DNA of 64,000 nucleotides from Tubiluchus corallicola (GCA_030141605.1 JAQGDQ010000775.1:1-64000), one strand, 5' to 3'. Positions 2,951 to 56,636 are shown, numbered from the stretch's first letter. The notes: a model not told the origin generated them from the sequence alone. Translations and numbers: made by a program.

Positions 2951-2956
2951 CCATAC

Positions 2957-5804: not shown

Positions 5805-5848
5805 GCAATACGTAACTATCAAATTGCTTCGTTCAGTTACGTATTGCT
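5805..5848. other. Oxford Nanopore ligation adapter remnants (end adapter followed by start adapter)
   Basis: GCAATACGTAACT at 5805-5817 and CTTCGTTCAGTTACGTATTGCT at 5827-5848 match the ONT Y-adapter sequences GCAATACGTAACTGAACGAAGT and AATGTACTTCGTTCAGTTACGTATTGCT. Confidence 0.92.
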
Positions 5849-5849
5849 C

Positions 5850-8390: not shown

Positions 8391-8399
8391 CCCGAAGTA

Positions 8400-17895: not shown

Positions 17896-18466
17896 ATGAC
17901 AGTGATGACGTCAATCGTCTCCCCCGACGACGGAATAGACGAGGTTGGAGATGATGGAACTCTAGCTGAGAATTACTATGACTTGCATCATCCGGGCAGC
18001 TATGGAAGCACTTGTGTTCTCGAGCGCGCCAGCGGCCGTTCCGCGCACAGGGTGCACAAGTGGTTGAGCGCCCAGCCCGCTTTACAGGGGTGCCAGATAC
18101 CGAGGATACCCCACTCGACAGACGTTGACGTCTCGCCAATCGATTACCAATGGCAAGTCGATCTGACGATCATGGACGCTCTCTCCAAGTACAACGACGG
18201 CTACAAGCACGTGCTAATGATGGTGGATTGTTTCAGTCACTACACCTGGTCAAGAACGGTGAAGGATAAAGGTGGAAGCGAAACCGCGCCCGCCCTACGC
18301 TTCTTATTCGAGATGGAAGGGCGTGTGCCGCTCAAGTTACACACAGACAAGGGTAGAGAATTTCACCACCGAAAATGCCTACAAGGCCGCCATGTTGGAA
18401 CGGCTCAACAGAACACTAAAATCTAGATGTTTCGAAGTTTTCACTCATCTCAACATGCTCAGATGA
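17896..18466 (+). pseudogene. Maverick/Polinton retroviral-like (rve) integrase, frameshifted and truncated
   Basis: YYDLHHPGSYG, QWQVDL, YNDGYKHVLMMVDCFS, KLHTDKGREF, then after a frameshift KAAMLERLNRTLK (D-D-E triad). Confidence 0.9.
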
Positions 18467-19589
18467 ATAGATTTTCCCAGACTACTAAACGAATTGCCAT
18501 CACACATGATGAAATGTGAAGTGTCGTGCCATGGATGATATTAAAGGCTTAACTGTTTGAAATGTTATTGCTGCAATTCGAGTTTATTTTTGCAACAGAG
18601 CAGTTATCAAGCATCACAAGTTTTGTTGTTGTCTCAACACGGAACGTCCAACTCTGAAGAAGAGGCTGTGTAGTGAATGCATATTTTCGCCTATACACCT
18701 TTTTGCAAATGACTTCCTTCTCCATGATTTAAACCTTGGAGAAATATCCGTAACGTGACTATCCTAACTTCACTTCATTTTTCTGCAAGATTCTTATAGT
18801 CAATATTAACTACTTATTTCATTTTTGATTCTTTTTACTTCCATAATTTATTTTTCGTAATTTCATTTAAAGCGACTCTAAAGTGTAAAACAAGTTGAGT
18901 TTAATTTATTTGTTATCGAAAGTTATCAACTTATTGTGCTTCGTACACAACAATTTAAACAAATTCTTTGCATTTTGACTACCTTGTATCGCCAAATTAT
19001 TTCTTCGTTGAGTTGTACTTTATAATGTTGTCTCAGCTTCAAAACAGTCACGAGTTCGCTTCTGAGTTCAACTTTCGTGTAATAATCAATAAACGCAAGA
19101 TTTAATTAACGTAACTTGTTCTGTAGTTGTTTGAAGAACGAGCATATGCATTACTTTCACTATTGTTGCAATTTACTTTGCCAGTCTGGGAAACAAGCCG
19201 GGGATACAACCAGTCACACAGGCAGGTCTAACCTAAACTGTACAATAAAAAGTCACAGACGTAGAGGTACCTGTTGGCAGTCAGACAGCTTCCAACCTTT
19301 CAGTTTCTAGCAAATAGATATGAACTTGTTACATACTGTATCATAAAGTCGAGAAAAGAAATTAGAGATCCGTGAATAAAAAAACGCATCACTACTTATT
19401 CCAGCGGATGCACGGTCAAACTCAAATGTTTGGATGTTTCCACTTAATTAATTGACTTATCATTTAGTAGTAGTCTGGTGCTTGTGCTGAGTAATTTGCT
19501 GAGAGTTCAAGTAAAAACAAAAATGACATTATGACAGAGTAAGCGAAACAATAAACAACTAGCCAAACCCCACAAAAAGAATTTTGTGC

Positions 19590-20646: not shown

Positions 20647-21013
20647 CTGTTTGGTCAAAATTTCGAAAAAATCGCAAGTTGGGTCCGGGAAAACGCCCGT
20701 TGCGGGACCCCGTGGCCCTCTCGCGAATTCTAAATCGGCCTATGACACCCATCGCTGAACGGGCTATCTATCCATACCCAGCACCCCCTTGGCCCATTCC
20801 CGTTCTCTACATCTCAGCCGTATAACTTTTGCAAAAAACGGCCGAAAAATGGCCATTTTTGGAGGTTTTTCGCCTCCCCTTCCTCGCGGTGGGCCCGATT
20901 CGAAAAATAAACCATCAATGAGAAGACACTAGAAGAACTAAGACCTTTCGTTTGATATATAGATCGCCGCAAATGGTGCCCTCGTCCGGGCTGTAGCCTC
21001 GAATCTTATATAT
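20647..21013 (+). repeat. Interspersed repeat Z, copy 1 (possibly a non-autonomous Helitron/Helentron-like element)
   Basis: Homologous to 52225-52560 (CTGTTTG..CAAAATTTCGAAAAAATCGC, CCGATTCGAAAA, ACCTTTCGT.TGA.ATA.AGATCGCC). The class assignment is a guess. Confidence 0.7.
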
Positions 21014-21041
21014 TAAGCCCATACCAAGAATATTACCATAC

Positions 21042-23842
21042 CATACCATTTATTGGAGCGGAGGTGTACACCAGGTTGCAGGAGTTGGCTTCGCAGTGTC
21101 TAACAAGTTACAATTGGAGTCACAGCCCTTAGCTATCAATGATCGTCTCATGATGTTGAAACTTCGGCTACAGGACAAATCCTTTCTTACTCTCTTTAGC
21201 GTGTATGGCCCCACTTTGCAGTGCTCTAATCATGAAAAAGAATCGTTCTACGATAATCTCACTGCTCATGCTAGGCAAGCTGCAAATGATGGCAAGGTGA
21301 TTATCCTAGGGGACATGAATGCAAGAGTAGGAAGAGATTCTATGACTTGGCCAGGTGTGCTTGGCAAACATGGAACAGGGAACATGAACTCAAACGGACT
21401 TCTACTGCTAGAATTTTGTGCCAGGATGGAGTTCTCTGTGACTGGAAGCTTCTTCAGGCTTCACGATAGGATGAAGACTACATGGCAGCATGCACGGTCC
21501 AAGCTCTGGCATCAACTTGATCACATCTTGGCTTGTAAGAAAACCATGAGTGACAACAACATCCGTGTGACCAAAGCAAGTCTAACTGCAGTCTGTTTCA
21601 CGGATCACAGATTGGTGGTGTGCAAATGTTCGTTCATGCTACAGAAACCTGCTCGCCCTCAGCGTCCACCAAAGAGGTTCAATGTCGAAGTTGACGAAGG
21701 CAAAGAATCCAAACTGCAAGTTTATCTTGCCAATGTTTTGAGTGGTTGTAGACCATCTTGGGATGAAACCAAGGAAATCTTACTCAACAGTGCAGAAGCT
21801 GTGTTCGGTAAACAAGGAAATCGCAACCGAGACTGGTTCAACGAGCTTGAAATCGGTGCACTAGTCAAGGACAAGAAAAACAGGCGTGAGCTCAGAAATC
21901 ATATCCGACTTATGAAGAATCAGTGGTTCCAGGACCGAGCCAATGAAGTTGAAAGACACGCCCAAATGAAGAATTTCCGGGAATTCTACGCTTCTCTCAA
22001 TGCCGTTTATGGTCCGACATCGCGTTGTAACCATCCTATCAAATCTATTGCTGGTGACACTCTCAACTCATCCAATGATATCCAGAATCGTTGGATGGAG
22101 CACTTCAGCACTTTACTGAATCAAACTACCGATGCTGACTTTACTATCTTGGAGGAAATACCTCAGTTACCAGTCATCGACGAGATGGATGGACTAGTCA
22201 CCCTCGAGGAACTCAAGTACTCTATTCGCCGTATCAAGCGACGGAAAAGCCCTGGACCTGATGGTGTCCCACCAGAGGTTATCATCCATGGCGGTGCTTC
22301 TCTCCAGAATCATCTTTTGGAGCTCTTCAACGTTATTTGGAGGACTGGTGATATGCCTCGTGACTTTGTCAATGCTAACATCACCATTTTGTTCAAAAAG
22401 GGTGATCGCAGTGATTGCGGTAACTATCGTGGCATTTCCTTACTCAGTGTTGTCGGAAAGCTTTTTGCAGACATTCTTCTCGTTCGGCTGGACAAGATTT
22501 TGGAGCGTATCTACCCAGAGTCCCAGTCAGGGTATCGACGGGATCGCAGTACCATTGATGGTATTTTTACGATTCGTCAGCTGATGGAGAAAACGAGAGA
22601 GCATAGAACATCAATGCATATTGCCTTTATCGACCTTACAAAGGCTTTTGACAGTGTCAATCGCGAATTGCTGTACAAGGTGCTTTCAAAGTGTGGATGC
22701 CCGGATCGATTTACAAGTATGGTAAAAGCTCTGCACACTGATATGCTAGCGCATCTCTCTGTCAATGGCCAGCTTAGTGATCCTGTAGAATACAACAGCG
22801 GTGTGAAACAAGGCTGCAAGTTAGCTCCATCTCTTTTCGGGCTTTTCGCTGCAGTCCTTTTGCAGGTAGCCTTCGGCAGACTTGGCTCGACGAAGAGCAT
22901 TCATGTTCGATTCAGATATGATGGATAGACATTTTTGACCTACGTCGACTCAAAGCAAGGACGAAGACACGAATGATGTTCCTGCGTGAAGCGCAATATG
23001 CCGATGACATAGCTATCTTCTCTGACAACCCGGAAGACCTTCAGGATCTCATCGACATTTACAATGAAACTGCAAAGAGAATGGGACTACGCATTAACAA
23101 AAGGAAGACTGAGACAATGAGTGTCGGCTCTAGCGACAGTGTCAATTTTACCATTGACGGACAACAGCTTGGAAGTGTGCAACGGTTCAAATATCTCGGA
23201 AGTTACATCTGCTCAGATACTCGATTGGATACTGAGCTTCATGCAAGAATTACTGCTGCAGCCAGCTCTTTCGGCCGTATGAGGAAACGTGTCTTCGATA
23301 ACCATGACCTTACCATCGCCACTAAACTGCAGGTGTACAAGCAATGCATCATTCCGCAGCTTACCTATGGTCAGGAAACGTGGACGCTCTATCAAGATCA
23401 GGTCAGGTCTCTTCGTGCGGTTCAGCAGAGACATCTGCGTCACATCCTTCGTATTCGCTGGGACGACTATGTGCCAAACGAAGACGCGCTGGCTCGTGCC
23501 AAGATGGAAGATATCGAGGTTACGCTTACCAAGGCTCAACGTCGGTGGTTTGGGCATGTGGTCAGAATGAACGATAAGAGACCGACAAAGGCTCTTCTTC
23601 ATGGAGAACTAACCAGTGGCTCTCGCAGTGTTGGTCGTCCTCTCCTTCGCTTCAAGGACAAGGTGAAGTTCTTTCTGAGGAAAGGTGGAATGTTGGACAA
23701 GCTGCCTTTCGCAGTTCACGACCGTCCTGCATGGAGATCCCTAGTCAACAACTGTGCCGAAAAACTCGATGAAGAAAGACGGATGCTTGGATATGCAAGA
23801 AGGTTCAAGTGGTGGATAAGAGATGGTTTCATGGACATCTGA
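21042..23842 (+). mobile_element. RTE-clade (BovB-like) LINE, 5'-truncated, APE endonuclease plus RT, one frameshift at about 22925
   Basis: YWSG...GVGFAV, ILGDMNARVG, WHQLDHIL, NYRGISLL, FIDLTKAFDSV, GVKQGCKLAP, FDLRRLKARTK, QYADD and GSRSVGRPLLRFKD. Confidence 0.95.
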
Positions 23843-28217: not shown

Positions 28218-28815
28218 TCAAGTAAGTGCATCACGGTGTCTCCGTGCTCTCTCTTGATGGTGACAGCGTGCTGGAGAGGCACCAAAGTGTGGCCCATGTT
28301 CTATGCAATCCAGATATAGGTACAGGGTCTGTTGACCACGATCCACCTTGCATGGGTGGGGCGACACATATTCGCCTCGGATCAGCACCTTTTCCCCCAC
28401 ATTCCGGAAGCCCATCATGTCCATGATAGGCTTTCACAAGACCAGAGTGGAAAGTTCTCCCTGCACCTTCCAGTGAGAGTGTCTGGAGTTGGGATGAAAA
28501 CTCACGTTGAAAAATTTTCTGGGCAACTATTCGTGCACGTAGCAAATCAACTGCTTGGCTTCGCTGTAGTGGCCGTTGTGTAGCTCTATGTGCTTTTAAG
28601 TCTTGGAGTGAAAGCGAAAATCTCTCGTCACGGGCAGCAAGGCCACGGAAGTTGCAAAAGGAGCGAGGATAGACTATTTCCGTCAGACCCACTTCCCACT
28701 CTCCCTTCAGTTCCAGCACGTCGAGCAGCTGCACTCGGAAGCTGCCGGGTCTGTTTTCCGGATGCTGTTCGGGCGAGGCATTGGAAGCCAGCAGCACATA
28801 AAAGCCGGTGGACAT
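28218..28815 (-). pseudogene. Maverick minor capsid (penton-like) protein, disrupted
   Basis: FYVLLASNASPEQHPENRPGSFRVQLLDVLELKGEWEVGLTEIVYP, and C-terminal TLYLYLDCIEH in another frame. Confidence 0.85.
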
Positions 28816-28859
28816 GATGGCTTCACGAAATCTTCCGCGCTTATCCATATTTCCGCATT

Positions 28860-29069
28860 CACGTCGTCGGTGCACTCCACTCCCCGCAATTCCTCGTTGG
28901 ATGGCGGAGATTGGGATATCCACAACACCCTCCAGGGTTTGCTATCGAACAACACGCTCCTATAGAGGACGAGATTTTTCACAAAAGCGGTTTTCCTGGC
29001 ACGAGAGGGTCCGGCCACCAACATGGTAATACCAAATTTCAGTCTGACGTCAAACGTTTGCTCCGTCAT
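28860..29069 (-). pseudogene. Maverick packaging ATPase N-terminus (copy A), joined by deletion to the minor capsid gene
   Basis: [29 protein letters not shown], closely similar to 40499-41134. Confidence 0.9.
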
Positions 29070-29236: not shown

Positions 29237-29387
<151 letters not shown>

Positions 29388-29419: not shown

Positions 29420-30140
29420 ATGGAAGACGAAACGTTTTCCTCTCACCCATGATTTCTCTGCAATGGTTAGTGCATCCATAGAGGACCAATTTTGGGTAAC
29501 TGTATATTTTGTTTTTCATTTCAAATTCGAGTAGTCGCCATTCGCGAGGAGCAGGAGCACCTTAAAAATATTTTTTACCATTTAATCGTAGGTCCATTTT
29601 CGTCGACGGTCGAAACACCAGCGCTTTAGCCAGACACTCACTAGAGGCAAGACGCTATCCATTACCTTAATGGAATACGATACACTAGTTGCCAGACGGG
29701 ATGCGATACTGGCGGCGGCGAGTAAGGGAAACGAATTTAGCAAGCTAGAAATACAACTGTCCCGAAGACTCGGATTGCTGGTGATGGCCTCGGTTCCGCT
29801 CTTCCTCAACAGCGTGAACATCACGTTTTCCATGAGCCGCAAAGCCCTTTGCAATCTCTTCAAGCGCACGTGGACGACCTGAAAATCATGCCACCGGGCA
29901 TCTTGTGTCTCGCTAGCCAAATCTACGTGTTCATGGGCGAGTGGGCATCCAGACCCGACATGTCCATCAGGCGTGGCGTGGAAGAAGGGGACGGTGTAGT
30001 TACGTGCAAACCCGGCATAAACCTACAACTGCACGAAAAATTTCAGAAAATGATAGAGGTGATCGAGGAAATGGTAGACGATGAGCCATACTACCAAACC
30101 CAGCTGTCGCTGCGACACAAACTGACGTGGGAAGGTTCGA
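29420..30140 (+). pseudogene. Maverick-borne spliced gene with tandem PC4-like repeats (copy A); exon 1 29420-29495, intron 29496-29591, exon 2 from 29592
   Basis: GT-AG intron. VHFRRRSK...TRGKTLSITLMEYDTLV and IYVFMGEWASRPDMSIRRG...KPGINLQL resemble PC4 repeats. Homologous to copy B; frameshifted. Confidence 0.7.
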
Positions 30141-30569
30141 AAGCTAGTGTTAGAGTTAGGGTTAGCCTTAACAACTAGACTCCTCAACTAGACACGGAAG
30201 CTAGATTTACCACGGAAGCTAGTGTTAGGGTTAGATCTAGGAATGGGGTTGAAGGTGTTATACACGGGAATGGAACCGCCCTCAAAACACATCCCAGGAT
30301 TCCCTAAACCACACGGTGTTGCATAAACTACCCTACGTGATTTTCGATTTGCGACAGGAAACGGACGATGGCATTCCCTTGAGAAGCACAATATTTCCAC
30401 TCGAAGCACCACAGATGGTCTTCTTGCCCCAAAAATGAGATAAACAAAATCGTGGTGCGTGAGCCACCGAATCAACAGCAGTCCATCAACAAAGGCAACA
30501 TCACTGGTGCTAGCAGTCAGAATGACACCGGTTTTATGTTACAAACCGTTTGTCCGGCAGTTGGCTCGT

Positions 30570-30920
30570 GTTAAAGGATATATCTGGAAAAATTGATGCC
30601 AAGTATGAGCATATATACAGAATTCTTTTTCTGATTTAAAGACAGAAGTCAATGAGATTACGTCAAGCCAACAGTATATCTTTGACATTTTTGAGAAATC
30701 CATGACAGATGTTTCTGCAAAATGCGAAAAACTTTGCTCCGAAAATGCTGCTCTAAAAACTACAGTATTTTCTCTTCAAGAGGAAATTAGAAAACTTCAC
30801 GAAAAGCAGGATGACCTTGAACAATATGAAAAGCCAGATTGTCTAATTTTTACTGGTGAACCTGTTACCAGGGTCGAAGATACATCCAATATTGTAGAGC
30901 GACTTGCTTATCATACGTAT
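30570..30920 (+). mobile_element. LINE ORF1 fragment (CR1/L2-group coiled coil)
   Basis: QDDLEQYEKPDCLIFTGEP..EDT resembles LEQYxRxxCLxxxGxPE...ED. Confidence 0.65.
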
Positions 30921-31899
30921 TTATACAACCTAGACAGGCACACAAACACACAATGCATCCATACAAATACACATTGGATCAATAATTGATGTCCGACACA
31001 AAAATTCTTCAAACCACAGTCTCGTTCATGCAATCAGCCACTCATACATTTCATAGTATTACCACAAATTGCACATTCAAGGTCAGCTGTCTGTCAGTTA
31101 TTAAAACGGCAATAAATAAACATTTGGAAACTTATATTTAAACTGGAATTAAATTTGCTAATGCGTTATTTAACATTCGTGGCTAAATCAATAATTCCAG
31201 CTAACGCCTTACGTAGTTATTGGGCTTCTCTGCCTAAAACTTTTTTTTTGTTATTGCAATGTACAAAGCATACAATATTTAGTCTATGAATCTGTGAAGT
31301 TAAACGCTTTAGTAACAGGTGCTGTTTATCTGAATTTCGCTTTGAAACATAACATACAAGGCTGCATATCAGTACTGTACGGGATGAACTATAGGACAAC
31401 GTTAGCTGTACTGACCTAGAAAAACGGATGGCTATTACATAGACCGACAATCAATGTCTGTGCTTAAGATTTTATTCTCTAACTAAACTCAAATAAAACA
31501 ATCAATCAATTAACATTTGGAAAATATCCCATCGCTGCCACCACCTGTGATGGTTCAGGTTAGAAGTGTCACAGGTACCCGAAGTCCACCTTTTGACGTA
31601 GCGTGTGCCGACAGGTGTATGCTAATTATTTATGCTAATTTTAAGATAAATTCATGAAATGTTCAATAAATACTTTGTTCGTAGTTTTCCTAAATAATAC
31701 GTGGGTTGTTTTCTTTTCATTGGTTAACGACATTTTTCTGATCTAAATAAACAAGACATGTAACAACAAATTTAATAAGATTCCAAATATTCAAAAAAAA
31801 AATGACAATGAGAATCAATGTACAAAAAAAGGAAAACCTTTTCCCCAGAATACTGGTGATCTACTAGGGTTTTGCTGAGTGTTCGCTGGCGGTACAGCA

Positions 31900-32045
<146 letters not shown>

Positions 32046-33580
32046 TTATTTCACTCCAGCAATACATATACAATACATCAACATACAATATTATTGAAAC
32101 AAAAAGAAACAGTATAGGTAAAAGAACGTTGAAGTCAAATTAACCAAATAAAAGAGTTGCTTTATGACACCTTGAAAGCTTGGCTTGTTAAGGTGGCACA
32201 AATGAGTGAACGAAAGAATGGTTGGGGTAGTAGACATGATGGAATGGAAAAATAGTAAGATTAGGGATAGGAAGAAGGAAAAGAGGAGAAGAAACGACCA
32301 CAGTTTATGTTTAATTTACATAGAGCTATATTAAAATAGCATTATAATTGATTGGAGGCCATATATTGCGACTGCATGAGACATGGAAGCATTAAAATTG
32401 TATTATAAGTATGAATAAAAAATGGTCCTTTTCAAGTACTTTTTGAAACTATAAATAGTTTTTTGTATTTTTACTTGGACACTTATTTTATTCCAATTAT
32501 TGGGGGCTGTGAATTTAATAAAGTGCCTGGCACTATTAGTACGACAGTAAGGGACATGATATTCGTTGGATCTTGTAAAGTGTTTAGGATTTGCTGTAAT
32601 GGGATTTGCAAAGGAAGTGGGAAACGAGTTGTAGTATGTCTTGTACATATAAATAGACAAGTGATATATAACCAAGTCTTCAGGGAATTATAATACCACA
32701 TTCATTAAATAAGGATACACCAACAGTGGTACGTTTAGATAAATTGTTTTATGTTCTTATAAACTTTCTTTGATGCCTAGATGAGCTTATTAAGTTGGCT
32801 GGATAAGATGTACCCTATATAATGCAGCAATAAGTTAGGTATGGTAATACCAATGAATTATAAAGAGTTATAAGATGAGATATGTGTAATTTATTTTTAA
32901 TAAAATTAATTATGTCCAGATTCTTAGCAATTTTTAAACATATGTGGTTTCCAGTCAAGATTTTCATTAATTAAAACGCATTAGAATTTTATATTTGGAA
33001 CTCTTTCGATTGCCTGTCCTTCAATGAATAAGTTAATGTCATTCGGGAGCCTCTCATTTATAGAGCGAAATACAATGCATTTTGTTTTAGTTGGATTCAA
33101 TGAAAATTTGTTTGCGTTAAACCAATCAGCTATTAATGGAAGTTTATTATTTATTTCAGGCACAGAATAAGATTGAAAATCAAAAAATAATGTGGTGTCA
33201 TATGCAAATTGAAAAAGGTTATTGTTGGTTAAGACAATTGGACAGGTCATTGATATATATTAAAAATAATAGAGGGCCAAGAGTGGAGCCTTGTGGTACA
33301 CCACACTTCATGGATTGACGTCTGGGCAGACAATTATTGCATCTAACTATTTGGCTTCTTGCAGAAAGTAATTATTAAACCATTCATTCAGAATACCTCA
33401 TGATCAACGGTGTCGAAGGCTTTAGACAAGCTACAGAAGATGCCAGCAGAGACTGATTTGTTTTCGATAGTATTAACAATTTGTTCACAGACCAAAGCTA
33501 GCTCAGTGGAAAGGCCTGATCTGAATCCAAATTAACTGTTGATAAGTATGTTATTTTTGATAAAATATTTGTATAATTGA
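32046..33580 (-). mobile_element. Decayed CR1/Crack-group LINE, RT and 3' end
   Basis: SKAFDTVDH, CGVPQGSTLGPLLFLIYIND, FAYDTT and WFNANKFSLNPTKT. Confidence 0.85.
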
Positions 33581-34290
33581 TTGTCCACACATATGTTTTG
33601 GTTTTGTCATATGTGTTTAGGTGACATATTTCCTTTTAGCAAAATTATTGACGACGAAAATTTTTATTCAAACACACGATATACTAGTGTTGGTGCTATA
33701 ATTGATAATAATTTTCTTAATTTGGATTTAATAGATGATGCAGAATCATTACTTAATGAAAACACAAATTTACATAGTACTGACCCGATATTAATTTTTT
33801 TAACAATACAAATGCCCTTGCCCATAGTAAATATTATGACATAGATAAATTTAATGCCATGTCGACTATTAATCATACTATAAATGACAATTCATTTTCT
33901 ATCATACACTTGAATATCCGCAGTGTAAAATACTAATCTCGACCACTTTTCTGAGTATATTCATTCACTTAATTTAAATTATTCTATTATAGCATTAAGC
34001 GAAACTTGACTTTGTGATGATATAGGCTCTACAATTCGTTTACCAGGTTATAATGCTGTTTTTATTAATAGGAAAATTAATAAAGGCGCTGGTAGAGTGG
34101 CATTGTTTATCAGAAATGATTTAACATATCTACTTCGTAAAGATTCAACTCTCTCTGAGGAAGATATCGAAGCCATTTTTTATTGAAATTGCTTGCAAAA
34201 ACGATGAGAATATAGTTGTTGGCTCTGTATGTCGCCCTCCAGGTGAATGCCCACTCCAATTTACTGACAAAATATCGGATATTATAAGTA
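33581..34290 (+). mobile_element. LINE ORF2 N-terminus and endonuclease fragment, inverted relative to the adjacent RT
   Basis: WFCHMCLGDIFPF, HLNIRS, IIALSET and IVVGSVCRPP. Confidence 0.75.
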
Positions 34291-34694
34291 AATATTTAAT
34301 ATTATATCAAACAAAATGAAACTCAAAGCGAAAATTTTATAAAGCAAACTGAAAGTAAAAGAATTTGTCAAAACCAATCCAAACCGGAATTCAGATAGCC
34401 CATTCAATGCTGGGTGTTATAGGCACATTTAGATTACACAGGAGGCCGTGGCATCCAGTAAATTTCATTTTCTGAACAAACTCACAGATTTTTCGAAATT
34501 TTAACCAAACAGCTTGTAGAAAAATGTTCTAGTGGCGCCTAGTTGGACTCTCGGAAGGAGATATATAGGGCCTCTCTTTGAAAAGAGGAGGAACATGGCC
34601 ATAAGGTAACGTTATATTTTAGGATGCTCCATCAAGAGACAATTGGCTTTTTCAAAAATGGCGTTCTCAATTATTTGCTAACGTTAGCCTACTT

Positions 34695-37600
34695 TCATCG
34701 CAAAAGATATGAATCAGGCAAAGGTCCATGGCCATTTTCCACAAATGCCTTTGACAATTCAGTGACATAATTATTAACACGTTGTTGAAATCCAGGAATG
34801 ACGTGGTAATAATGAGTAAAGTACGTGTCGTTTAATGTGTATTGTCTTTTGATATGGTCCCCTGGGTACTTTTCTGCACAATGTAAACGTGATTTGTTCT
34901 GTCCTAGGAAGCTTAAGACTGCTTTCAACTCTCCAGTCAAATTCGACTTTAGTTTTTCGTAAATGACAACATGAATGTCTGCAGATGATTTCAACAGCCA
35001 CCTGGTGTAAAAGCTGAACCAGCGGTTGAGCAGAAATGTACCGTTTAAAAACTCAAGCCATCCTGAAACAGTAAGAAAATAAGAACAATTATCTAATGAG
35101 TTGGTAAAGCGTCGTTGCTTCAGTGTTTTGACAGATTATTAACACAAAATTACTATTATGATCTTTAACACATATTATAATCTCTACTATAATCTTTGAC
35201 TTTTCAGAAAGAAGCAAAATTATACGAATGTTAAAAACACTTCACAACAACAAATTTGCATTCAGTATCAGAAAATAAGTGACGTTTGTGTTATTCTTAT
35301 AAAATGTTTCATTGTTACTATCGTTACCAGAATGTTCATTACTATCTTCAATAACCTTATCATTATAATTGGCACTGTTGTTAAGGATACTAAGAAAAAT
35401 CAGGTCATGAACCTAACAAAACTGCAAAATGAATCAAGTACTTACTGTATAAAGCGTACGGACTTTTATAGTCTGGTACTTCTTCGTTATTGCGTATTTT
35501 GACAAAGAAAACTTGTCTTTTGAACTCCGCATACACGGCATCATAAGGGTTTCGAACCACAAGGACAGCGGCTGCAAAGTCTTTCAGTGTTTCGTTGTCA
35601 ACAAGGTGCGTTTTAACAACAATCGTCTTTCCTTCAAACGGTTTTAGCCCTCTTGTACCCGGTGGAAAAGGAAAACTGCTTTTGCCTTTAAAATTATTAA
35701 AACTGACAGTTATTTGATCTGTTAATAGTTATTTTGAGTTCTGTCAATAACAATAATCAGAAAATTGTGACAAAATGGCAAACCAGAAACTTTACATACC
35801 TAAAGGCTGGTTCATGCCTTTACCAGCATAAAAACTGTTTAAGGTACAGTACTTTAGAGATGACATGGTACAGATCGTCATGGCATGCATATTAATTGTC
35901 TAAAAATACCAGCAGCTGCAAAATGAAGAACATTTTTTCTTGTGATTTTTGAAAAAATGCACTTGTTGTGTATCCCGTAGGATACATTGGGGACAAATGG
36001 CTGTAATTCCCCTTCATAATAACAGACACAGGAATACACTGATGTGCAAAAACCTCTTTGCTAGTCCAATAATTAGCTTTTTGTTTAGTAAACTATGTTG
36101 ATACTGCAACATTACTGTGTCAACATTGCCACTCTTGAGTCCCTTTCCAATTTATTCATTATACTGCTTCACTACAAATTAGAATGCAGACTATAGACAG
36201 CCTTGAAATCAAAAGGGATTTGGTCTGTTGGGACAATTCGCAGCAATCGGATTAGTGGGTGCTTGTTTCTTTCGGAAAAAGACATAAAAAAGAAGAGCCG
36301 TTGTACATATGATAGTAAAGTGGACATAATTTCTGGAATAAACGTTGTTCGCTGGTATGACAACAAGCCTGTAACATTGACTGCGACTCATTTTGGTGTA
36401 AATCCCGTCCAGAAGGTGAAACGATATGACAGAAAGCAAAAACAAAAAGTTGATGCAGATTGACCTGCAATTGTAAAAGAGTACAACATGCACATGGGGG
36501 CAGTATATCAGTTTGACATGTTGATGACTTTCTACAGAGTTGATCATAAAAGCACAAAGAGGCACTGAAGAGTACTCTTTTGGTGCCCTAGTGTTGCAAT
36601 TGTAAATTGTTGCAAATGTACACCGCCATAGACAAAAACCTAAAGGAGTTAGTTGGTGTTCTGAAGTGCTGTACCTGGCAAGAATGTTAGATGTCCTACT
36701 TTTAAATAATGTTGTTAATGTCGATTAGGTCTGGGGCGATGAAGGGGTCGAGGAAACAAAAACTTAACTCACTGCTTGATATGTCACCAATTAAAATGAG
36801 CAGTGGGTTTATACCATTATAATAATCCAAGAAATATTTTATTAATCAGGTCCCTCAACCTGGATTGAAATACTAAAAAAAATCAATCCAACACCCGGTA
36901 TGCTCTACGTGACGCATTTCTTCTAAGACCTAATCTACAGTTGTATAATAGTTTTTTCCAAAACAAGAGTTCGCAGGTGGCATAATTTACCACCCCTTTT
37001 TTGCTTCTTAAATTCAGTCGATCTATTTAGCATAATAAGCAAATACTTATGCATCAGTATATACATAAAGCAAGTATCTGTATAACATATATAAATCAAA
37101 TTCTCGTTAATACAACAAAATTAAGATATAATTCTTGAATTTTTGAATTGAGGCCAAAGAAGCAAAGCCTGTGTAAGGCCACCAGAATCAGTGGTGAGAA
37201 AAATATTTACAGGGGGCACAGTTAGTTGCAGTAAGTATGAGTTACAATCGAAAACAGGAACTTTCCTTTCTGCATTTGAACTTTTGGTGAGTTCGTACTA
37301 AATCATATATATTATTATATATATATATTATAAGTAGTCATATATAATCATATATATTATTATATATATTATATATTACTACTTATACTAAATATTATAA
37401 GTAGTGACATTTCAACAAATAGATTCATCGCCAATTTTTCACGTAAGACAGTGTGCATCGATAATTGTTTACGGTCTCTCCTCTGTACTCTGTGTGCCTT
37501 GTATATTTCAATTTTAGGTGTTAACTAATAAATTATTTGTGTTTTTGAACTTACTATCAATGTAACTATATTCAAGATAACCAGCTCCACGTGTCTGTTC

Positions 37601-40600
37601 TCAACTGAAATGTACTTATTGCATAGTGGAAGAACTCCGATCTGTAGTATTACTATATATCAGTCCAATTAAAATAAAGTTCATGTATTAGTGATAAAAC
37701 GGCAGAAGTTTTACACTCCTCTGGGCAAATACAATTTTCCTCCAGGGCAACCTAAATGCGCATCTGTTTAGCTTTGTAAAAATATATGGTTCTTACACGT
37801 TATTGACTGACTGCCCCTCTGTGTTAACAGACATAATTAAACTAAGTTTTGAACCCGTTGTGTGGTCACTGAAAAGCCCAACATAACAGTATTTCTGGCT
37901 GTTTTTGGTATTGCCTGCATAGTAGGGCCTTTATGGATTTAAGTGTCACGGATTTGGCAATCAATGCAGAACAGACAACAAGACAACTGCGTCAAGGATA
38001 ATGTCATTCATTCTAGTTGACTGCCTAATCAGCGTGCAAGATTTTTCACACCCCTGCAGAGCTTTTCTAAAACCAGTGCTTTTGGCAGAGATAGCTGCAG
38101 CTGCCTATTACTGGGTATCTAGTACTGTTATGAAAAATGCTCAACTTTTCAATAGTAAGCGGGAGAAACATTGGACAGGTATAAAAGATCCAAACCAGCA
38201 TGTAAAAATCACAGTCTGCGCACTTGTAAGTGGGTTTGCCCAGGTTGTAGTCGACTTTGGTAAAAAATTGTAATTAGCTAGTCGACATTGGTAAACAATA
38301 GTTGAGGCCTAGTCACAGAGCTGAACTCGATTGTCATGATTATGAGTAAGCCAGCACACTCACAGATACCAATATATTGGTAAAACGGTTTCAGAAATTT
38401 TTAGGCAAAATATATTATAGTTTTTATAAACCTCAATGAAATCTTCACGGGCCAAATTAATTCGAATGTGGCAAAAAACTTAATTACAATTACAATGCAC
38501 GTAATAAACACACTATTTACAAAAATATAATTACATACATATATAACGCTATAAAAACATATACGACTTTATTAAGAACACAATTATACAAGTCAAATTG
38601 AATAATTTAGCCTAATAACAGAACATCAAACTCGAATGTATAAACTCAATGGTACAACATAAATATATACATAAACACAATTTAAAGCAAAACCCGGACC
38701 CAATCTTAAACAGTAGGTCAAAACAATCTATTCTTTAAGATACTGAAAGGGAACATACTATTTTTGTCAAAAATGTCTTACGAATTATTACCACACAAAT
38801 ACAATTTCACATTCGCGCCACTAGCTCTTCGCTCTTACATGTATTTCGCCATTCACTAATTAGATGGGAGTAGAGGAGACTGTCTCTTTTCCAGTGATTG
38901 AATTGCCCTGTAATTGCCCAATTAATACCTATTGTATTGCTTAATTGTTCTTTTGTTTTAAGGGAAATTAGTGCTGAGGGGTGGGATGAATTAGGGACCC
39001 TGCCCAGGGGTTAGGTACCGCCACTTCTCGTTGTCGGTGCCAAACACTCGTCAATGAGGGAAATCTTTTTTTGGGATCGTTGATGAAGGAAATCTTTTTT
39101 TGGGACTCTACCGTGGCGACGACGGCACCAACAGTGAATTGTCTTTTCTTCCACTTTTCTTCTCTACGGCACCGACGGAGAATTCTCCGCGACCGCTTTT
39201 CTTCTCATGTCGCCAAAGCCCCGTTTGTTGATAAATGACGATTTAATTATTGTCTGCATTTATTTCAAACGACAAAGCCCGATAAATGCATTTTCGCAAA
39301 TGTTTTTTATTGATAGAATACAAAAAAATTTTACATACATACATTATGATGTCGTATATTACACAATATACTAAAACTAGATTAATGATGTCGCTATCGT
39401 GGAGAACATAGATTATTATCGACGAGCAATTGATACAGGCAAACATTATTTCTGTTAAACACAAATTCGTTAAATTTGAGAAAAACGCTAGAGAAATCCT
39501 CCGCGTTTGTCCCGCCCATCATCTCTTTCATCTCTAATGGACACTCCCTTGATGCAGAAGAAACCTTGCCAAACTGTCATTCTCCACCGTGGCAACAACT
39601 GACATTCGTAGTATTCCTCGTTGTTGACTATTTCGTCCAGATGGAGGTTCATGCCGGGTTTGGTTGGACTCACTGCAAATGCTTGTTGGGGAAAGATGAA
39701 GAGTGGCACGGAGTCTGCTATCAGGAAAGACGTTCTGCCAGACAGTTCTATTTCAAAATCTGTATAAGTCATTTCCTCATTCAAGGCCATCAGTATTTCT
39801 TTTCGTTTACGAATGAGTTTCCCCATATTCCATCACGGTCAAAGATACGTGCTTCCCTCTAGTGAGTGTTTCGCTAGTGGCATCATTCTTAGATCGACGC
39901 CGAAAATGAACCTATGAATAAAAGGACAAAATTTTTTAACGCCTTCCTGCCCCCTGACACCAAATAGGAAGAGGAAAACAATGTTTGACTATTCAAAATA
40001 GTAGAAAAATAATAATAATGAACATTTACTCACCTGATACTGTTCATCTAAGGATGAAAGTGATGTCGACAAATCGTATGTCAGAGGAAACACCATGGTG
40101 TCATTTTCCATCATCATCATACAGTAATGTTTTCTTCACTGACGAGAGAGAGAGAGATGTGCTCGTGTGCTATCTTCTCACCGTCCAAGGCAGATGTGGC
40201 AACTCCCTGTCAAAACACCACATTATATACGAGCTCTCTTCTGGTTAACGCCAACCAACGGATGAATGCTGTCAACAATAGTGCAAGCGATGATGTCATG
40301 GCGTCTGTCCATCCACCCGTTTTCCTGCCACGAAGTCACGACGCGGTGTACTACATAACATCTATTGTGAAAAAAACATGTTTGAAAACGTCCAACTGCT
40401 GCAACCGTTTTTTCTGCAAGCCAAGTCGTATTATTTATTTATTTATTTTTTGATAAACATTTATAAAGGTAGGTCGATTTGTTTATTTGGTAATTACGAT
40501 GGATCGAATTTATGATGCGAGATTGAAATTTGGTAGCACCATGTTGGTGGCCGGACCCAGTCGCGCCGAGAAAACCACTTTTGTAAAAAATTTAGTCCTT

Positions 40601-43600
40601 CATCGGAACGTGTTGTTTGACACTAAACCGGACAGGGTGTTGTGGATTTTGCAAACACCTCCTCCACTAGCCTCCTCTCGCGAAGAATTACAAGAAGTGG
40701 AGTACAGCGAGGACATAAATGTCGGAATACGTGCAGGAGATCTGGTGGTGGTGAACGACATGATGATGGAACTAGCCACTTCCAAGCGACTGACTGACAT
40801 GTTCACAAAGCTAGCACACCACAAACCGTGTTTCGTGGTTTTCATCACGCAAAATCATTTTCAACAGAGCAACGAATCGAGAACGCGCAGTTTAAACACC
40901 CACTACTTGGTGTTTTTCAAAAATCCACGCGACAAGATGCAGGTGGAAGTGTTGGGTAGTCAAATGTATCTGGGTAAATCGAAATCTTTTAGGGAAGCTT
41001 TCGAGCGCACCACCGCTGCACCCTTTTCTTACATGCTATTCGATTTGTGTCAGGAAACCGACGATGCCATTTGCATGAGAAATAACATATTTCCACACGA
41101 AGTGCCACAATTGGTTTTTCTTCCCCAAAAATGAGATCATTAAAATGGTGCACGCTGCACGTGTCATTGAATTACTAGCAGCGGTGAAAATGCCACAAGC
41201 TCGTATTAGACGTCATAAACCTTTTTTCAAGAAACTGGCTCGTGCCAAACTGCGTGATAGGACGGATATGTTAAAGTGGGCCGATGCCGATGTGATTAAT
41301 TTTTTGGCGGAATGCGCTCTCAACATACTACGCGGTAATGTGAAGTTGAAAACCAAACAGATAAAGGTATTGAGGGGACATTGTAATGCGCTGAGAAAGT
41401 TGGCACGCGCCGGTTCCACACTGAAAGACAGAAGACGAGCGTTAGTGCAAAAAGGCGGTATATTTCCAATCATACTTGGTGCCACCCCGTCTGCCGCCAG
41501 CGTGGCCATTACAGTGAAGACATTCTGCGATAAAAAAAGAAATAGAAAATGTATTCTCAGATGGTTTTACTATAACAGGTGTAACAGGTTAAACTATGCG
41601 CGGTTCGTTCTAGACACACCTGCCGAGCAGAAAACTGTAGAAATTTAACAGAAAATGGCGGAATTGTCTGCTCGAGGATTACCACCCGATGCGGAAAATA
41701 AGATGAGAAGTGAATTGATGCACGAGATCAAAGATTTGAAAAAGCCCTCCTCCACGGGCGAAGATGATGGAACCCGATTGATAGACACTCAAATAATCGA
41801 GGCATTACTCGGCAAGTACAAGAGCAGGGGATAAAAAATGCTCTCCTTTTTGAAGGCCTGTCGAACACACACCTGGTGGACTTGATAAATTATGCCACAA
41901 CTAGCCAGAAGATGACTCCGCCTCGCGGTTGGTCCGACTTTTCTCAACATCTGAAAGAAATAAGTGTACCTATGGCTCTGTTGGGTAAAACGGCTAAGAC
42001 AGAACTTGAGAGCTGGCAACAGCAGCAACAGCAGCGTGAAAGGTTGGGACTGTCAATGCCCCTATCTTCTCTAGTAGCCGATGTCGAAACGACGACACTA
42101 CCCCCACCACCTTCTAATAAACGAACCAGTCGAAAGTGTGGTCCTCAACAGCAGCAACACAATTTCAAGGGGTTTATTCGTCTTCCGAACTACTACAGAG
42201 TGTTACAGTGAAGGAGCTACCAGCTAGCTATATTGTCAACACTCAACCCATCAATTTACCGGGTGAACACTGGGTGGCGCTCTATTTAGACACCTCTGGT
42301 CGCGGAGAGTTATTCGATTCTTACGGATTGGCACCCACCTATAGAATTAGGACATTTTTAAATATAAATCATAGAGGAAAATGGACTTTCATCACAAAAG
42401 CACTACAATCACCCATCCTTCCTACTTGCGGAGCATACGTTTTATGGTTTTGCTGTAGACGACCTTATTACGACTCTCTACAGCAGCTGCTGTGTAATTT
42501 CCAACCATTTTTTCTAGACAGAGAAGTGGTGTTGATGAAGCATTTATTTTCCGTTGGCGACAGAGGTGATGATGATGATGATCGCTACAAACCACACCAA
42601 CGGTGATAATGTTGATGATGATGATGACGATGACAATGAATTTAATCATGGTGGTGACACCGTGCACGTTGTATGTTGTATGTCACTAATCTCCATGCTG
42701 CACTATAACCCACATGTAAGGTCTCACTTACTCCCCCTGGTCTGCTATAATCCCTCAATTAGCCAAAAAACACAGGAAATAATGCCACGGCAGGGGATTT
42801 AATTGAATTTTAAGTAGATATTAATTGGGCAATTACAGGGCAATTAAATCACCCGAAAAGAGACATTCTCCTCTACTAACGGGCACTAGCACCTGCATTT
42901 CGGAAATGCATTGCACAAAAACAAGTGATGTACCTCTAAGTTCAGATTGTGTTAGCTTCTGACGAAGTACACGCGTTTGACAGCTCATGCATGAGCACAG
43001 CGGTAAATTTGAAATTTGAATTTTTATCTTAAAACTTGCTCAGTTTTAGTACAACACACTGAATATCTTACAGCAGCACTGTACTTCAATTTTCGCTTTC
43101 GCAAATTCGTGCAACACGCTCGTTGATTATTTTTGCTGCTGGAACTTATGTTAGTTTGTGATGTCATCAGTAGTTGGGCTCTTCTGCCGTTAATTAAGTT
43201 TTTAGTCTATTGTTTTATTGTCAGAAGCGCTTTTGCAAGTATTCTCACCTTTTTTACCAATCCGCCTGGTAGATCTATTATCTGTCAGCTGGTGAACCAC
43301 TGAGCATTTCTTCCTGCTTCACCATGCGTTTCTCGAGCATAAGAGGTCTTTTACGCCAGTGGGTTGCTAGCACTATCCTGACAACCCTCCCGGGTTTGGG
43401 ACCGGCACAGAGTTCAGCTGGATTGCTGGGCCAGTGACTGGTTTCCAGCTTTCAGTATTAATACTGCCAGTTTGCAGTATTGGTCGTATCAAAATGTATA
43501 CTTTTATCGGACTTGAAAATGAATATGAAAAATGGGCAGTATATGAAAAATGATCCTGTCTTCCTGTAAGATAATTTCATAGACATAGTATTTAATTTAC

Positions 43601-49633: not shown

Positions 49634-52600
49634 GTGTGTGTGTGCTTATTTGTACCTACATTTATCTTATATATTATACTATATTATATTTATTTTTTTA
49701 TTTTTATATATATCAAAAGCATAAAATCACACAAGGACAGCACAGTATTAAAAAAAAACTCACACAACTGCACAGAATTTGAAAACAAAAACATATATTA
49801 CAATATTATAAGCAAATTGTAAACAAACTGTATACAATATAAACAAACAGTTTAGAATAGATGTGAATTTTGTACTGATAAATAGATAAAATTTTTATAA
49901 GAATAGTTTTCATCATTATCATATGTAGGGATTTTGGAAATGATTTAAGGTATTCATTTTTCATTTTAATCTAAACTCCCAGAAAGAGATGGCTGTTTTA
50001 ACTTGGTGGCATATATATATATATATGTATAATTTCTTTTAATTGGTTAAATGGTTGAACCACTAACATGTCAACCTAAACATAGAAGTGCAAATTGAAA
50101 GAACATTTTAAAAACGCAAAAGCGCTAACTTTTGTGTGTACATAATTTCTTAATTCTGTTGGTACAAGTTGGTGGAGTGTTCTATTTTAACACATATTTC
50201 AATGTATAATTTCATAGGGACTGTTATACAATTCAGTTTAAGAAGCTGCAAATATATGTATAACGTTGTACATCGTAAACCGTATTAGCATACCTTTGCA
50301 TGTTTATATTATCATTTGATTTCAATAATTATGCGAAACATGTTTAATTTTAAAATTACGTGCGATCTCTAGAATGATTTTACACTTACTTTACTAATTG
50401 ATTTGAATTCTTATTAAAACATCACATGTTTCTGTTTTAAAAACACCAGATTAAGTAACAAAACAAATTTATATTATAACAAAAGATTAACTTCCTGGAG
50501 ACTGATGTAGCAACATTTTTTGCGTGCAATAACATGATGATTATAAACCCTTCGTTTGATGAAAATTTTGGTGCTAGGGTAAGAAATGTTTGGGCAGCGA
50601 TATGCAGGCTAATAATTCAACTTACACACTTTGGCAGGAAGCTATGCACTCCTTGTGTGTGATTGTCTTGCTAGTGGGCTGCACACCTCTCATTCTTAAG
50701 CAAATGTGGTTTAAAAGTGAGGCTGAAACGAAATAACTATTATTATTTCTCATGATACAGTTTAAAACTTCCGCAACGTTTGGACGCATTTGTGGTCATG
50801 TTCACGCAACAATCTACCTAAATAATAATTACGTGTGAAAATTACCTACAGAATTCAACTTTGTGAGAAGCAAAAAAAGCCGAATACAAAATTGGAAACT
50901 TAGAGATCGTGAGATCAAAGCCAAATTACAGAAAAAATTAGTTTATGTTATTCTAGCACAATTCTTTCTCTAGCACAGTGGGTGATCATAAGGTGGTAAT
51001 GAGGCAGCAAGAGAAGCATTTGCACAAAAAGTCATTAAAAACAATGTAAACTAGTTAACAATGTTTCTGATTTTGCAAACAATAGTTACAGAATTGGACC
51101 TTGTAAAGATGCTAGCATTTTGTTTGAAAATTATAGTTTACATTTCATTGAACTCGCATTGTTGCTTGATTACATAAGAATTACGCTTGGCAACAAAATA
51201 CACAACACATGGGCCACAGGTCAACCAATCTTGGCCATTAAATTTGGCTCATTGAGACCATTTAATATAGTACAAGCTACTTTTAGTCGACCATGGAAGG
51301 CATTTGTCTCCTCGGCCACTGTTTTGCCCTTAATGGTGTCACAGCTTAACGATTCACATTGTAGCTTATACTATTCCATTTGCCTCGTCAAGCCCTATCA
51401 TTTGCTATAAAGTACTGTTACTCAAAATTCGCTGCACTTCTGTTCCCAACCCCCATTTTTGGTCACCATTTTGTTGAACCCAAATTTTGCATTTCGGTCT
51501 CTCCCACGGCGATTAAAACCTTGTCAGCTTTTTAGAACCCCAGCACCCCTACCCCACAATGCCCAAATATTTGCGAAAAAAACTACAAAAAGCTCTTAGA
51601 GCACATGTTTTTTAAAGGAAAAACTGACCGATGTCCCCTGCCCTTCTCTGTGAGTTTCGTGGCCATAGCTTGCAAGGCTTAGAATTATTAAGTGTTAAAG
51701 TTGTGGAGAATAAATAATAGCTAGTTGACAATCTTTCTGACGTGGTCAGAAACTGAAAATTTTGCAAGCAATAGTTGTAAAACTCAGCCTTCAAGATGAA
51801 GAGATGACAGTTTTTCTTGAAATTTTCTTTTATTGAATTCACCTTGCTTGAATACATTTAGTGCATTTCACTATGAAACCCCCAGAACTGTTCAGCCCAT
51901 CACCCACGGGTCAAACGTCAACCTGTCTTGGCATAACTTATATCATTGAGACCTTCCAGAAATGAACTCTCTAAACACCCGGGAGTGACACTCACGACAC
52001 CTGCAGTAGTTCGAACCGTCACCGCCACAGCTAAAATTCCTTGCAAATGGGATCTGCCTACACTGCACTGGCTACACAGAAAGTTACCACGTTCTTTTAA
52101 TGCAGTGTTGTACGAAGTAGAGCTTTTTCCCAAATTAACTTGTAAATGTGGTCAAAAGACGTGGTCAGTTATTCACACTGGAAGCCTAATAATGATGATG
52201 GGAACGGACTTGGAAAATTTCCTGCTGTTTGACCAAAATTTCGAAAAAATCGCGAGTTTGGTTCGGGAAAACGGCTGTGATGGGACGCCGTGACCCTCCC
52301 CGCGAATTCCAGATATGCCTACTACACCCGCCGTTGAACTGGGTATCTAACGATTATCAGCACCGCTCCCGGCCCGTTCCCGTTCCCGTTCTCCAGAAAA
52401 AAGAGGTGTAAGTTTTGCAAACATGGTCAAAATAGCAATTTTTGGGGGTTTTTCGCCCCTGGTTGGTCCGATTCGAAAAGTAAACCCTCAATGGCATGAC
52501 ACTAGATCGAAACCTTTCGTATGACATAAAGATCGCCTCGAATATATATATATATATATACCAGCGAAATATATACGATGATTTTATAACAACATTATAA

Positions 52601-56539: not shown

Positions 56540-56636
56540 TAACCCTAACCCTAACCCTAGCCCTAGCCCTAACCCTAACCCTAACCCCAACCCCAACCCA
56601 AACCCCAACGCTAACCGAAACCCTAATCCTAACCCT
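56540..56636 (-). repeat. Degenerate interstitial telomere-like (TTAGGG)n
   Basis: About 16 CCCTAA-type units with variants. Confidence 0.9.

What the first reader, a model, noticed from the sequence alone, without database searches (positions are those of the whole stretch)
29420..40111. Two diverged Mavericks share an intron-containing gene encoding tandem PC4-like (ssDNA-binding) repeats, head-to-head with the packaging ATPase
Seen: copy A (29420-30140, +) and copy B (39400-40111, -) each have a first exon of about 26 codons (..FPLTHDFSAMVSASIEDQFW and ..[19 protein letters not shown]). Each has a phase-0 GT-AG intron at the same position (96 and 122 bp; the intron sequences do not align). 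Exon 2 starts [14 protein letters not shown].(L/V)S(I/L)T.MEY in both. Later segments ([28 protein letters not shown]) repeat the same pattern. The ORF track misses this because of the intron and frameshifts. Established: PC4/Sub1 has the core IDIREY...KPGRKGISL...QW..L and binds ssDNA as a dimer; Mavericks replicate with a protein-primed PolB, and the usual core set is PolB, integrase, ATPase, protease and capsids. Inference: this lineage encodes a single-chain multi-PC4 protein that could act as the SSB for strand-displacement replication (analogous to adenovirus DBP) or as a transcription cofactor. Exon conservation with intron divergence suggests the splicing was functional. I do not know whether this has already been described.
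Basis: partly seen in the sequence, partly recalled or inferred. Interest (0 to 1): 0.85.

Follow-up and report, generated by a model that had tools for sequence, protein, structure and literature searches.

The report
Spliced PC4-like gene inside Maverick relics
Two decayed virus-like Maverick transposons in an animal genome share an unusual gene with a likely spliced intron, whose product weakly resembles the DNA-binding protein PC4 in one domain and likely helped copy the element's DNA; such genes were already labelled on Maverick maps but, in the papers I could search, never studied.

Summary
The gene is real. Both copies have a GT-AG intron at the same phase-0 position, closed by stops if unspliced, and keep a coding signature (118 codons, dN 0.40, dS 0.80). 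Both lie head-to-head with a Maverick packaging ATPase. Copy B sits just inside the left terminal inverted repeat of a 4,009-bp internally deleted Maverick, so the gene belongs to the element. Two corrections: the introns do align (0 of 2000 shuffles reach the score), and 'tandem PC4' is not shown. Only one of four candidate units matches PC4, weakly but by three methods (Pfam E 0.02, ESM Atlas 0.87, own profile 0 of 60 shuffles). It lacks the PC4 W89 stacking residue. Folding failed and no RNA run covered the gene, so splicing and ssDNA binding are inferred. One unbroken relative was found. PC4-like ('MOSUB') and 'SSDBP' labels already stand on adintovirus maps (Starrett 2021, Suppl. Fig. S2), intron-bearing Maverick cargo is known from nematodes, and this scan noted PC4-like Polinton genes in at least 7 other genomes. 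Verdict: a new variant of a known but unstudied Maverick accessory gene; likely a replication SSB (0.45).

The parts
29420..29495 (+). Copy A exon 1 (broken by a frameshift near its start)
   Evidence: codon-position identity to B 0.65/0.82/0.41 over 17 codons
29496..29591 (+). Copy A intron, GT-AG, 96 nt, phase 0, 3 in-frame stops
29592..30133 (+). Copy A exon 2; frameshift with missing sequence near 29870-29890; similarity ends near 30130
   Evidence: tblastn of P0001, 40-48% identity, E 4e-32; a contig of run X1 holds additional letters at the break (table 8)
29891..30082 (+). The one supported PC4-like unit (unit 3; P0001 residues about 115-179)
29238..29384 (+). (CT)n tract just upstream of copy A start; TATAAA at about 29210
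   Evidence: function untested
28824..29069 (-). Element A packaging ATPase, N-terminal part, head-to-head with the gene
   Evidence: 62% identity to B ATPase
28234..28815 (-). Element A minor-capsid (penton)-like fragment abutting the ATPase N-part
   Evidence: 40% to ORFs of Maverick contigs L025 and L027; the penton label is recalled, no Pfam hit
30292..30438 (+). Element A ATPase C-terminal part on the opposite strand (rearrangement)
   Evidence: 51% to B ATPase residues 165-211
38869..38931 (+). Element B left terminal inverted repeat, begins AGTAGA
   Evidence: 63 nt, 92% complementary to right arm
39430..39911 (-). Copy B exon 2; frameshifts near 39825 and 39500, internal deletion near 39670 removing most of unit 3
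39912..40033 (-). Copy B intron, GT-AG, 122 nt, phase 0
40034..40120 (-). Copy B exon 1, open, 29 codons from the first ATG (26 from 40111)
40499..41134 (+). Element B packaging ATPase
   Evidence: 31-36% to ATPases of L025 and L027, which weakly hit Pox_A32 and Adeno_IVa2
41145..41648 (+). Small basic conserved Maverick ORF after the ATPase
   Evidence: 32-37% to the ORF at the same place in L024, L025, L028
41649..42211 (+). Further conserved Maverick ORF, in two frames
   Evidence: 28% to L024 and L028 ORFs
42121..42606 (+). Adenovirus-type maturation protease remnant
   Evidence: Pfam Peptidase_C5 E 0.006, below cut-off; 34% to L025 protease
42815..42877 (-). Element B right terminal inverted repeat, ends TCTACT
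   Evidence: flanking 6-mers match 4 of 6 (chance 4.8%)

Best explanation
This is a decayed accessory gene of one Maverick (Polinton) lineage, with a likely spliced intron, whose product is predicted to hold at least one PC4-like domain and likely served as the element's single-stranded-DNA-binding protein during replication. Shown: homologous genes in two element relics, coding-type conservation, homologous GT-AG introns, position inside the TIRs of element B and divergent from the packaging ATPase. Inferred: transcription in the nucleus from a promoter in the 350-378 bp shared intergenic region, removal of the intron by the host spliceosome, a protein of roughly 270 residues or more, pairing of the PC4-like unit with a second beta-sheet/helix unit (same chain or a second chain), and coating of the strand displaced by the protein-primed PolB. 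Both copies here are now broken.
For: Coding signature A vs B: 118 codons, identity by codon position 0.66/0.77/0.51, dN 0.40, dS 0.80; ATPase control 0.27/0.94. Conserved codons lie upstream of the first Met of exon 2, so a start in exon 1 is needed. Intron homology and splice signals. Unbroken relative P0001, 42-47% identical. PC4 signal on one segment: Pfam PF02229 E 0.02 at P0001 125-171; ESM Atlas top three clusters all carry PF02229, best 0.87 with 180 shared features, a viral cluster; profile of 16 phage and plasmid PC4 proteins gives hhalign probability 63%, E 7e-5, 0 of 60 shuffles and a full-length in-register alignment, 18.8 vs 2.9 +/- 2.0. F77 (as W), R86 and a basic residue at 100 of human PC4 are kept. 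Phage T5 has a PC4 homologue tied to DNA replication (T5.115 = PDB 4BG7; PMC7549692 passage). Adintovirus maps carry MOSUB and SSDBP labels.
Against: All PC4 signals are weak: 14.8 bits against a Pfam cut-off of 25; Atlas under 0.9 is a lead only; in the window background two unrelated segments of 1158 scored like the gene (E 0.019 and 0.031 vs 0.016); the three methods are not fully independent. Window fragments alone hit no Pfam family and A's first exon-2 segment no Atlas cluster. Unit 3 has no aromatic residue at PC4 W89 (nor at 88) and lacks R70 and K101; W89A abolishes ssDNA binding in PC4 (PMC4350104 abstract text). The gene lies beside the packaging ATPase, not PolB, and 2 of 2 related Maverick contigs with over 1 kb upstream of the ATPase have PolB there and no such gene, so it is dispensable for Mavericks in general. 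No transcript evidence.
Confidence: 0.45

Rival explanations
1. The PC4-like protein is a transcription cofactor for the element's own genes (PC4/Sub1 role at melted promoters), perhaps with an element-borne TBP-like protein, rather than a replication SSB.
For: PC4/Sub1 acts in transcription (PMC4350104 abstract). The gene shares a divergent intergenic region with the virion-assembly genes and is kept with them in element B without PolB. TBP-like fragments occur elsewhere in the window (Pfam TBP E 0.082; second piece).
Against: The TBP-like pieces are 9-19 kb away and not shown to belong to these elements; the TBP match is weak. Retention in a dead deletion derivative need not reflect function.
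Confidence: 0.22
2. The fold is PC4-derived but repurposed: having lost the W89 stacking residue it no longer binds ssDNA in the PC4 way and serves as a scaffold, an RNA/dsDNA binder or a decoy for host PC4 partners.
For: W89, R70 and K101 equivalents are absent in both A and P0001; three other units are unrecognisable; P0001 has a long low-complexity tail.
Against: T5 PC4 also departs at this position in the alignment yet is described as a functional homologue; F77 and R86 equivalents are kept.
Confidence: 0.18
3. The PC4 resemblance is chance: a real spliced Maverick gene of another fold.
For: Scores below cut-offs; no PC4 chain among PDB sequence hits; both AlphaFold2 runs uninformative.
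Against: Pfam and the separately built profile pick the same 50 residues in both P0001 and copy A, in register from strand 2 to the helix, and the Atlas independently ranks PC4 clusters first.
Confidence: 0.12
4. There is no intron: exon 2 is a stand-alone ORF and the upstream similarity is promoter or UTR conservation.
For: P0001 as called starts with Met at the start of exon 2; the intron is more conserved than synonymous sites would suggest; intact vertebrate Maverick genes are intronless (PMC8097293); no RNA junction seen.
Against: Neither window copy has a Met there; exon 1 shows codon-position bias and ends on GT in frame at the same place in both; single-base indels inside the intron break any frame.
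Confidence: 0.08

Closest known systems
Adintovirus (Polinton/Maverick) 'MOSUB' and 'SSDBP' accessory genes, Starrett et al. 2021 (PMC8502044, Suppl. Fig. S2)
   Same: A MoSub1/PC4-named gene on an animal Polinton map; in the extracted label row it stands next to an ITR, as the gene here stands next to the TIR of element B.
   Different: Only a map label; not defined or discussed in the main-text passages I read, no intron mentioned. I could not compare sequences, so orthology is untested; that MOSUB means MoSub1 is my reading.
PC4/Sub1 C-terminal domain (Pfam PF02229; PDB 1PCF, 4BHM) and phage T5 PC4 homologue (4BG7)
   Same: Unit 3 aligns in register with strands 2-4 and the helix, with F77-, R86- and G102-equivalents.
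   Different: Below the Pfam cut-off; no W89 aromatic; embedded in a protein three to four times longer; canonical PC4 is a two-chain dimer.
Type I (single-chain) PC4-like domains: Whirly/P24, MRP1/2, Pur-alpha (PMC7549692)
   Same: Precedent for repeats of the four-strand/helix unit in one chain without sequence similarity, which is what a four-unit reading would look like.
   Different: Not shown here: no fold obtained, units 1, 2, 4 unmatched.
Intron-bearing cargo genes of nematode Mavericks (wasp, krma; 10.1101/2022.07.12.499685)
   Same: Genes with introns in the region next to the left TIR while core genes are intronless (passages).
   Different: Those are host-derived proteases and kinases; this gene has no host orthologue found and may serve the element itself.
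Adenovirus DBP (recalled, not tested)
   Same: Would be the functional analogue: SSB for protein-primed strand displacement.
   Different: Unrelated fold (recalled); no sequence comparison made.

Membership tests
Maverick/Polinton | Terminal inverted repeats with AGT/AG-type end motif | tested here: met
   Element B: 63-nt arms, 92%, AGTAGA//TCTACT vs (AGT)2 or (AG)3 in PMC8097293. Not found for element A.
Maverick/Polinton | 6-bp target site duplication | tested here: inconclusive
   4 of 6 match; chance 4.8%
Maverick/Polinton | Packaging ATPase, protease, minor capsid | tested here: met
   Matches to ORFs of contigs L025 and L027 that also carry PolB and integrase; ATPase and protease in B, ATPase and penton-like in A
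Maverick/Polinton | Protein-primed PolB, integrase and major capsid inside the element | tested here: not met
   No PolB or major-capsid match in the window; the integrase fragment at 17845-18490 lies outside both elements. The elements are deletion derivatives, not autonomous.
PC4/Sub1 (PF02229) | Pfam score above gathering cut-off | tested here: not met
   14.8 bits vs 25 for P0001; none for window fragments
PC4/Sub1 (PF02229) | In-register profile match over strands and helix | tested here: met
   Unit 3 only:
PC4/Sub1 (PF02229) | ssDNA-contact residues R70, F77, R86, W89, R100, K101 | tested here: not met
   3 of 6 kept or conservatively replaced (F77, R86, R100), read by eye with numbering
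PC4/Sub1 (PF02229) | Four-strand sheet plus helix fold, paired as a dimer | tested here: inconclusive
   AlphaFold2 mean pLDDT 32.6 and 39.1
PC4/Sub1 (PF02229) | Binds ssDNA | not testable with these tools
   needs bench assay
Type I single-chain PC4-like (Whirly/Pur-alpha-like) | Two or more units in one chain | tested here: inconclusive
   Unit 1 vs 3 in register, 3 of 60 shuffles reach it; halves in register over 53 columns but 33 of 100 shuffles reach it; units 1, 2, 4 do not match PC4 in register
Adintovirus MOSUB gene | Sequence orthology to the labelled gene | not tested
Spliceosomal (U2-type) intron | GT-AG ends, pyrimidine tract, frame joined, junction in RNA | tested here: inconclusive
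   Sequence features met; no RNA holder listed

The most novel reading that the evidence does not exclude
This Maverick lineage encodes a spliced, single-chain four-unit PC4 protein (a duplicated pair of one canonical and one degenerate unit), a Whirly/Pur-alpha-like architecture evolved independently in a virus, that is the missing SSB of Polinton protein-primed replication and is co-regulated with the packaging ATPase from one bidirectional promoter.
Probability: 0.2. Interest if true: 0.7.

Novelty: new variant of a known kind. Interest (0 to 1): 0.42.

Why it matters
[quoted passage not shown] If PC4-like accessory genes fill that role, an open question in Polinton replication becomes testable with a small protein. 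A conserved spliceosomal intron in an element-serving gene would also show long nuclear, host-spliceosome-dependent expression, against the 'intronless' picture of Maverick genes. The caveat is that the gene class has been labelled before and that this copy pair is dead.

Tried and rejected
No own genome is held. Homologue searches: 3 of 3 word-index searches returned nothing or only P0001; the representative search gave 5 hits, of which only P0001 is a true relative and 4 are repeat-driven or unrelated. Locus scans for the gene were empty: viral contigs (the single hit L001 is a phage tail-type ORF matched by a short word), metagenome contigs, phages. The ATPase scan of viral contigs was empty; of 6 metagenome loci 5 are Maverick ATPases and L029 is spurious. 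A DNA motif scan for viral PC4 genes gave 6 loci, none clearly PC4. PHROGs and NCBIfam gave nothing. PDB sequence searches gave no PC4 chain and nothing for the ATPase. AlphaFold2 failed twice, so no fold search was run. Complex prediction of unit 3 with unit 4: no answer, not evidence. RNA: no RNA holder listed; the guessed RNA run X2 laid 1 contig on the ATPase and none on the gene, which is no evidence on expression. Summed contig depths of X1 are much higher over parts of copy B than locus-specific contigs, hinting at more copies, but the tool states they are no copy number. Adding exon 1 did not raise the PC4 score of unit 1, so the domain test gives no support for splicing. A separate tool alignment of the N-terminal part was not completed.

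Full report
Setting. The window is repeat-rich, low-GC DNA with LINE-type ORFs and microsatellites, consistent with an animal genome (inference); no whole genome is held.

The observation. Both quoted exon 1 and exon 2 motifs are present. The introns are 29496-29591 (96 nt) and 40033-39912 (122 nt), GT-AG, phase 0. Unspliced read-through meets stops in both. Among 26 and 45 candidate GT-AG pairs, 4 per copy keep the frame, and the proposed pair is the only one at the homologous place in both; the B donor is CAG|GTGAGT. They are one ancestral intron with kept signals. Over 118 aligned codons A and B show identity by codon position 0.66/0.77/0.51, dN 0.40 and dS 0.80; the ATPase control over 125 codons gives 0.27 and 0.94. 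Decay after insertion inflates dN, so these show past purifying selection, weaker than on the ATPase. Exon 1 alone (17 codons) has the same pattern. Both upstream regions carry a TATA-like word and a (CT)n tract just before the start; function untested.

State of the copies. Copy A has a frameshift near the start of exon 1, a frameshift with missing sequence near 29870-29890, and loses similarity near 30130. A contig of DNA run X1 holds additional letters at the second break, and the relative P0001 is open across it, so the two segments are one gene. Copy B has an open exon 1, frameshifts near 39825 and 39500, and an internal deletion that removes most of the PC4-like unit.

The elements. Copy B lies in a 4,009-bp element, 38869-42877, bounded by 63-nt inverted repeats (92%) that begin AGTAGA and end TCTACT; vertebrate Mavericks end in (AGT)2 or (AG)3 (PMC8097293, passage). 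The flanking 6-mers match 4 of 6 (chance 4.8%), a possible decayed target duplication. Inside: the gene, pointing to the left TIR, then ATPase, two conserved ORFs and a protease. These match ORFs of metagenome contigs L024-L028, of which L025 and L027 also carry PolB (Pfam E 7e-14, 4e-15) and integrase. No PolB or major capsid matches the window. So B is an internally deleted, non-autonomous Maverick and the gene is part of it. Element A is rearranged: ATPase N-part and a penton-like fragment on the minus strand, ATPase C-part on the plus strand beyond the gene; no TIR was found. In 2 of 2 related contigs with more than 1 kb upstream of the ATPase, PolB stands there and no PC4-like gene; the other 3 true loci are too short. 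The head-to-head layout is thus lineage-specific.

Relatives. One true relative was found, P0001 (343 aa, Logan contig of 1,683 nt, 42-47% identical, called from the start of exon 2 onward). Its genomic context could not be read. All other searches were empty (see Tried and rejected); they cover animal genomes poorly, so this is no proof of rarity.

Is it PC4? Window fragments hit no Pfam family. P0001 hits PF02229 at residues 125-171, E 0.02, 14.8 bits against a cut-off of 25. The ESM Atlas ranks three PF02229-bearing clusters first, the best at 0.87 with 180 shared features, 98 members, all viral where recorded, PF02229 on 21% of members, phylum Preplasmiviricota known for one member; under 0.9 this is a lead. 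I built a reference from 16 phage and plasmid PC4 proteins starting from T5.115 (= PDB 4BG7). The same segment scores 10.6 bits in copy A and 8.2 in P0001; among 1158 window segments it ranks first by E-value (0.016) but two unrelated segments are close (0.019, 0.031). Profile against profile, unit 3 gives probability 63%, E 7e-5, 0 of 60 column shuffles and a full-length alignment at 18.8 versus 2.9 +/- 2.0, 0 of 50. I divided the protein by eye into four units. Units 1 (across the intron, X at the junction), 2 and 4 did not align to PC4 in register; unit 1's best alignments are out of register, and shuffling exon 1 did not lower its score. Unit 1 versus unit 3 aligns in register over 31 columns (3 of 60 shuffles reach it), and the two halves over 53 columns (33 of 100 reach it). 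With 2-3 rows per unit these tests have little power, so a tandem architecture is neither shown nor excluded. AlphaFold2 gave mean pLDDT 32.6 and 39.1. Of six ssDNA-contact residues of human PC4 (PMC4350104, abstract text; alignments, read by eye) unit 3 keeps F77 as Trp, R86, and Lys at 100, and lacks R70, W89 and K101.

Mechanism. Best reading (0.45): a spliced accessory gene whose PC4-like product coats the displaced strand during protein-primed replication. Shown are the gene, its position and the weak PC4 match; splicing, fold, ssDNA binding and the role are inferred. Rivals: transcription cofactor (0.22), repurposed fold (0.18), chance resemblance (0.12), no intron (0.08, not exclusive of the others).

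What is known. Full-text searches: 'Polinton' + 'PC4' gave 1 paper, irrelevant; Maverick/PC4/coactivator/capsid, 23 papers, none of the 20 listed holding 'Maverick'; six-term search, only that one of the 40 listed (of 212) holding PC4; 'adintovirus' + 'intron'; 'MOSUB', 22 papers, none of the 20 listed on Polintons; Polinton + SSB terms, 30 of 3,695 listed, one mentioning Polinton once; Mavericks/Polintons + spliced, 19 of 23 listed. However, Suppl. Fig. S2 of Starrett et al. 2021 (PMC8502044; I read passages, section 3.2 and the extracted text of that figure) labels a MOSUB gene next to an ITR and SSDBP genes on adintovirus maps; Figs S1 and S3 could not be read and the archive was cut. I was led there by scan notes e1-8631281 and e1-8593302. 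Intact vertebrate Mavericks are intronless (PMC8097293, passages), but nematode Mavericks carry intron-bearing cargo near the left TIR (10.1101/2022.07.12.499685, passages). PMC7549692 (abstract, section on type I domains, passages) describes single-chain repeats of the PC4 unit and cites the T5 homologue as a replication factor (that paper seen as a title only). Term look-ups in 10.64898/2026.10.13.758929, 10.1101/2024.03.25.586562 (also one section), 10.1101/2023.08.22.554363 and PMC5803895 showed nothing on PC4-like or spliced Maverick genes. The scan itself holds 12 notes on PC4 with Polinton in at least 7 genomes, several spliced; these are unchecked leads, not support.

Verdict. A real, previously unannotated-looking variant of a known but unstudied Maverick accessory gene class. 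The TIR-bounded context and the homologous intron are solid; the PC4 assignment holds for one domain at modest confidence; the tandem and SSB claims remain open. Interest 0.42.

Noticed in passing
window 51937-52290 (+) and 20647-20712 (+): TBP-like ORF fragment (Pfam TBP E 0.082) with a second, 77% identical short piece 31 kb away; may be a Maverick-borne TBP as in scan note e1-8577702.
   Followed up: partly
window 17845-18490 (+): Broken Maverick-type integrase fragment (Pfam rve E 2e-10; 29% to L025 and L027 integrases), outside both elements.
   Followed up: partly
window 1-9104: Large nested inverted duplication, arms 97-100% complementary around about 4400-5150 with an N gap near 5850-6100; a palindromic element or an assembly artefact.
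   Followed up: no
window 29238-29384 and 40145-40156: (CT)n tract at the homologous place just upstream of the start in both copies, expanded to about 140 nt in A and 12 nt in B; possibly a promoter element that seeded a microsatellite.
   Followed up: partly
window 30135-30260: Short GTTAG/TTAGGG-like repeats at the point where copy A loses similarity and the ATPase C-part begins; perhaps a healed break.
   Followed up: no
window 56540-56647: Degenerate (TAACCC)n telomere-type array.
   Followed up: no
window 20997-23842 (+): Nearly whole LINE-type endonuclease/reverse-transcriptase ORF in two frames (label recalled).
   Followed up: no
L025:1-9759: Metagenome contig with a compact Maverick gene run PolB, ATPase, small ORFs, integrase with chromodomain, penton-like, capsid-like, protease, all on one strand.
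   Followed up: partly
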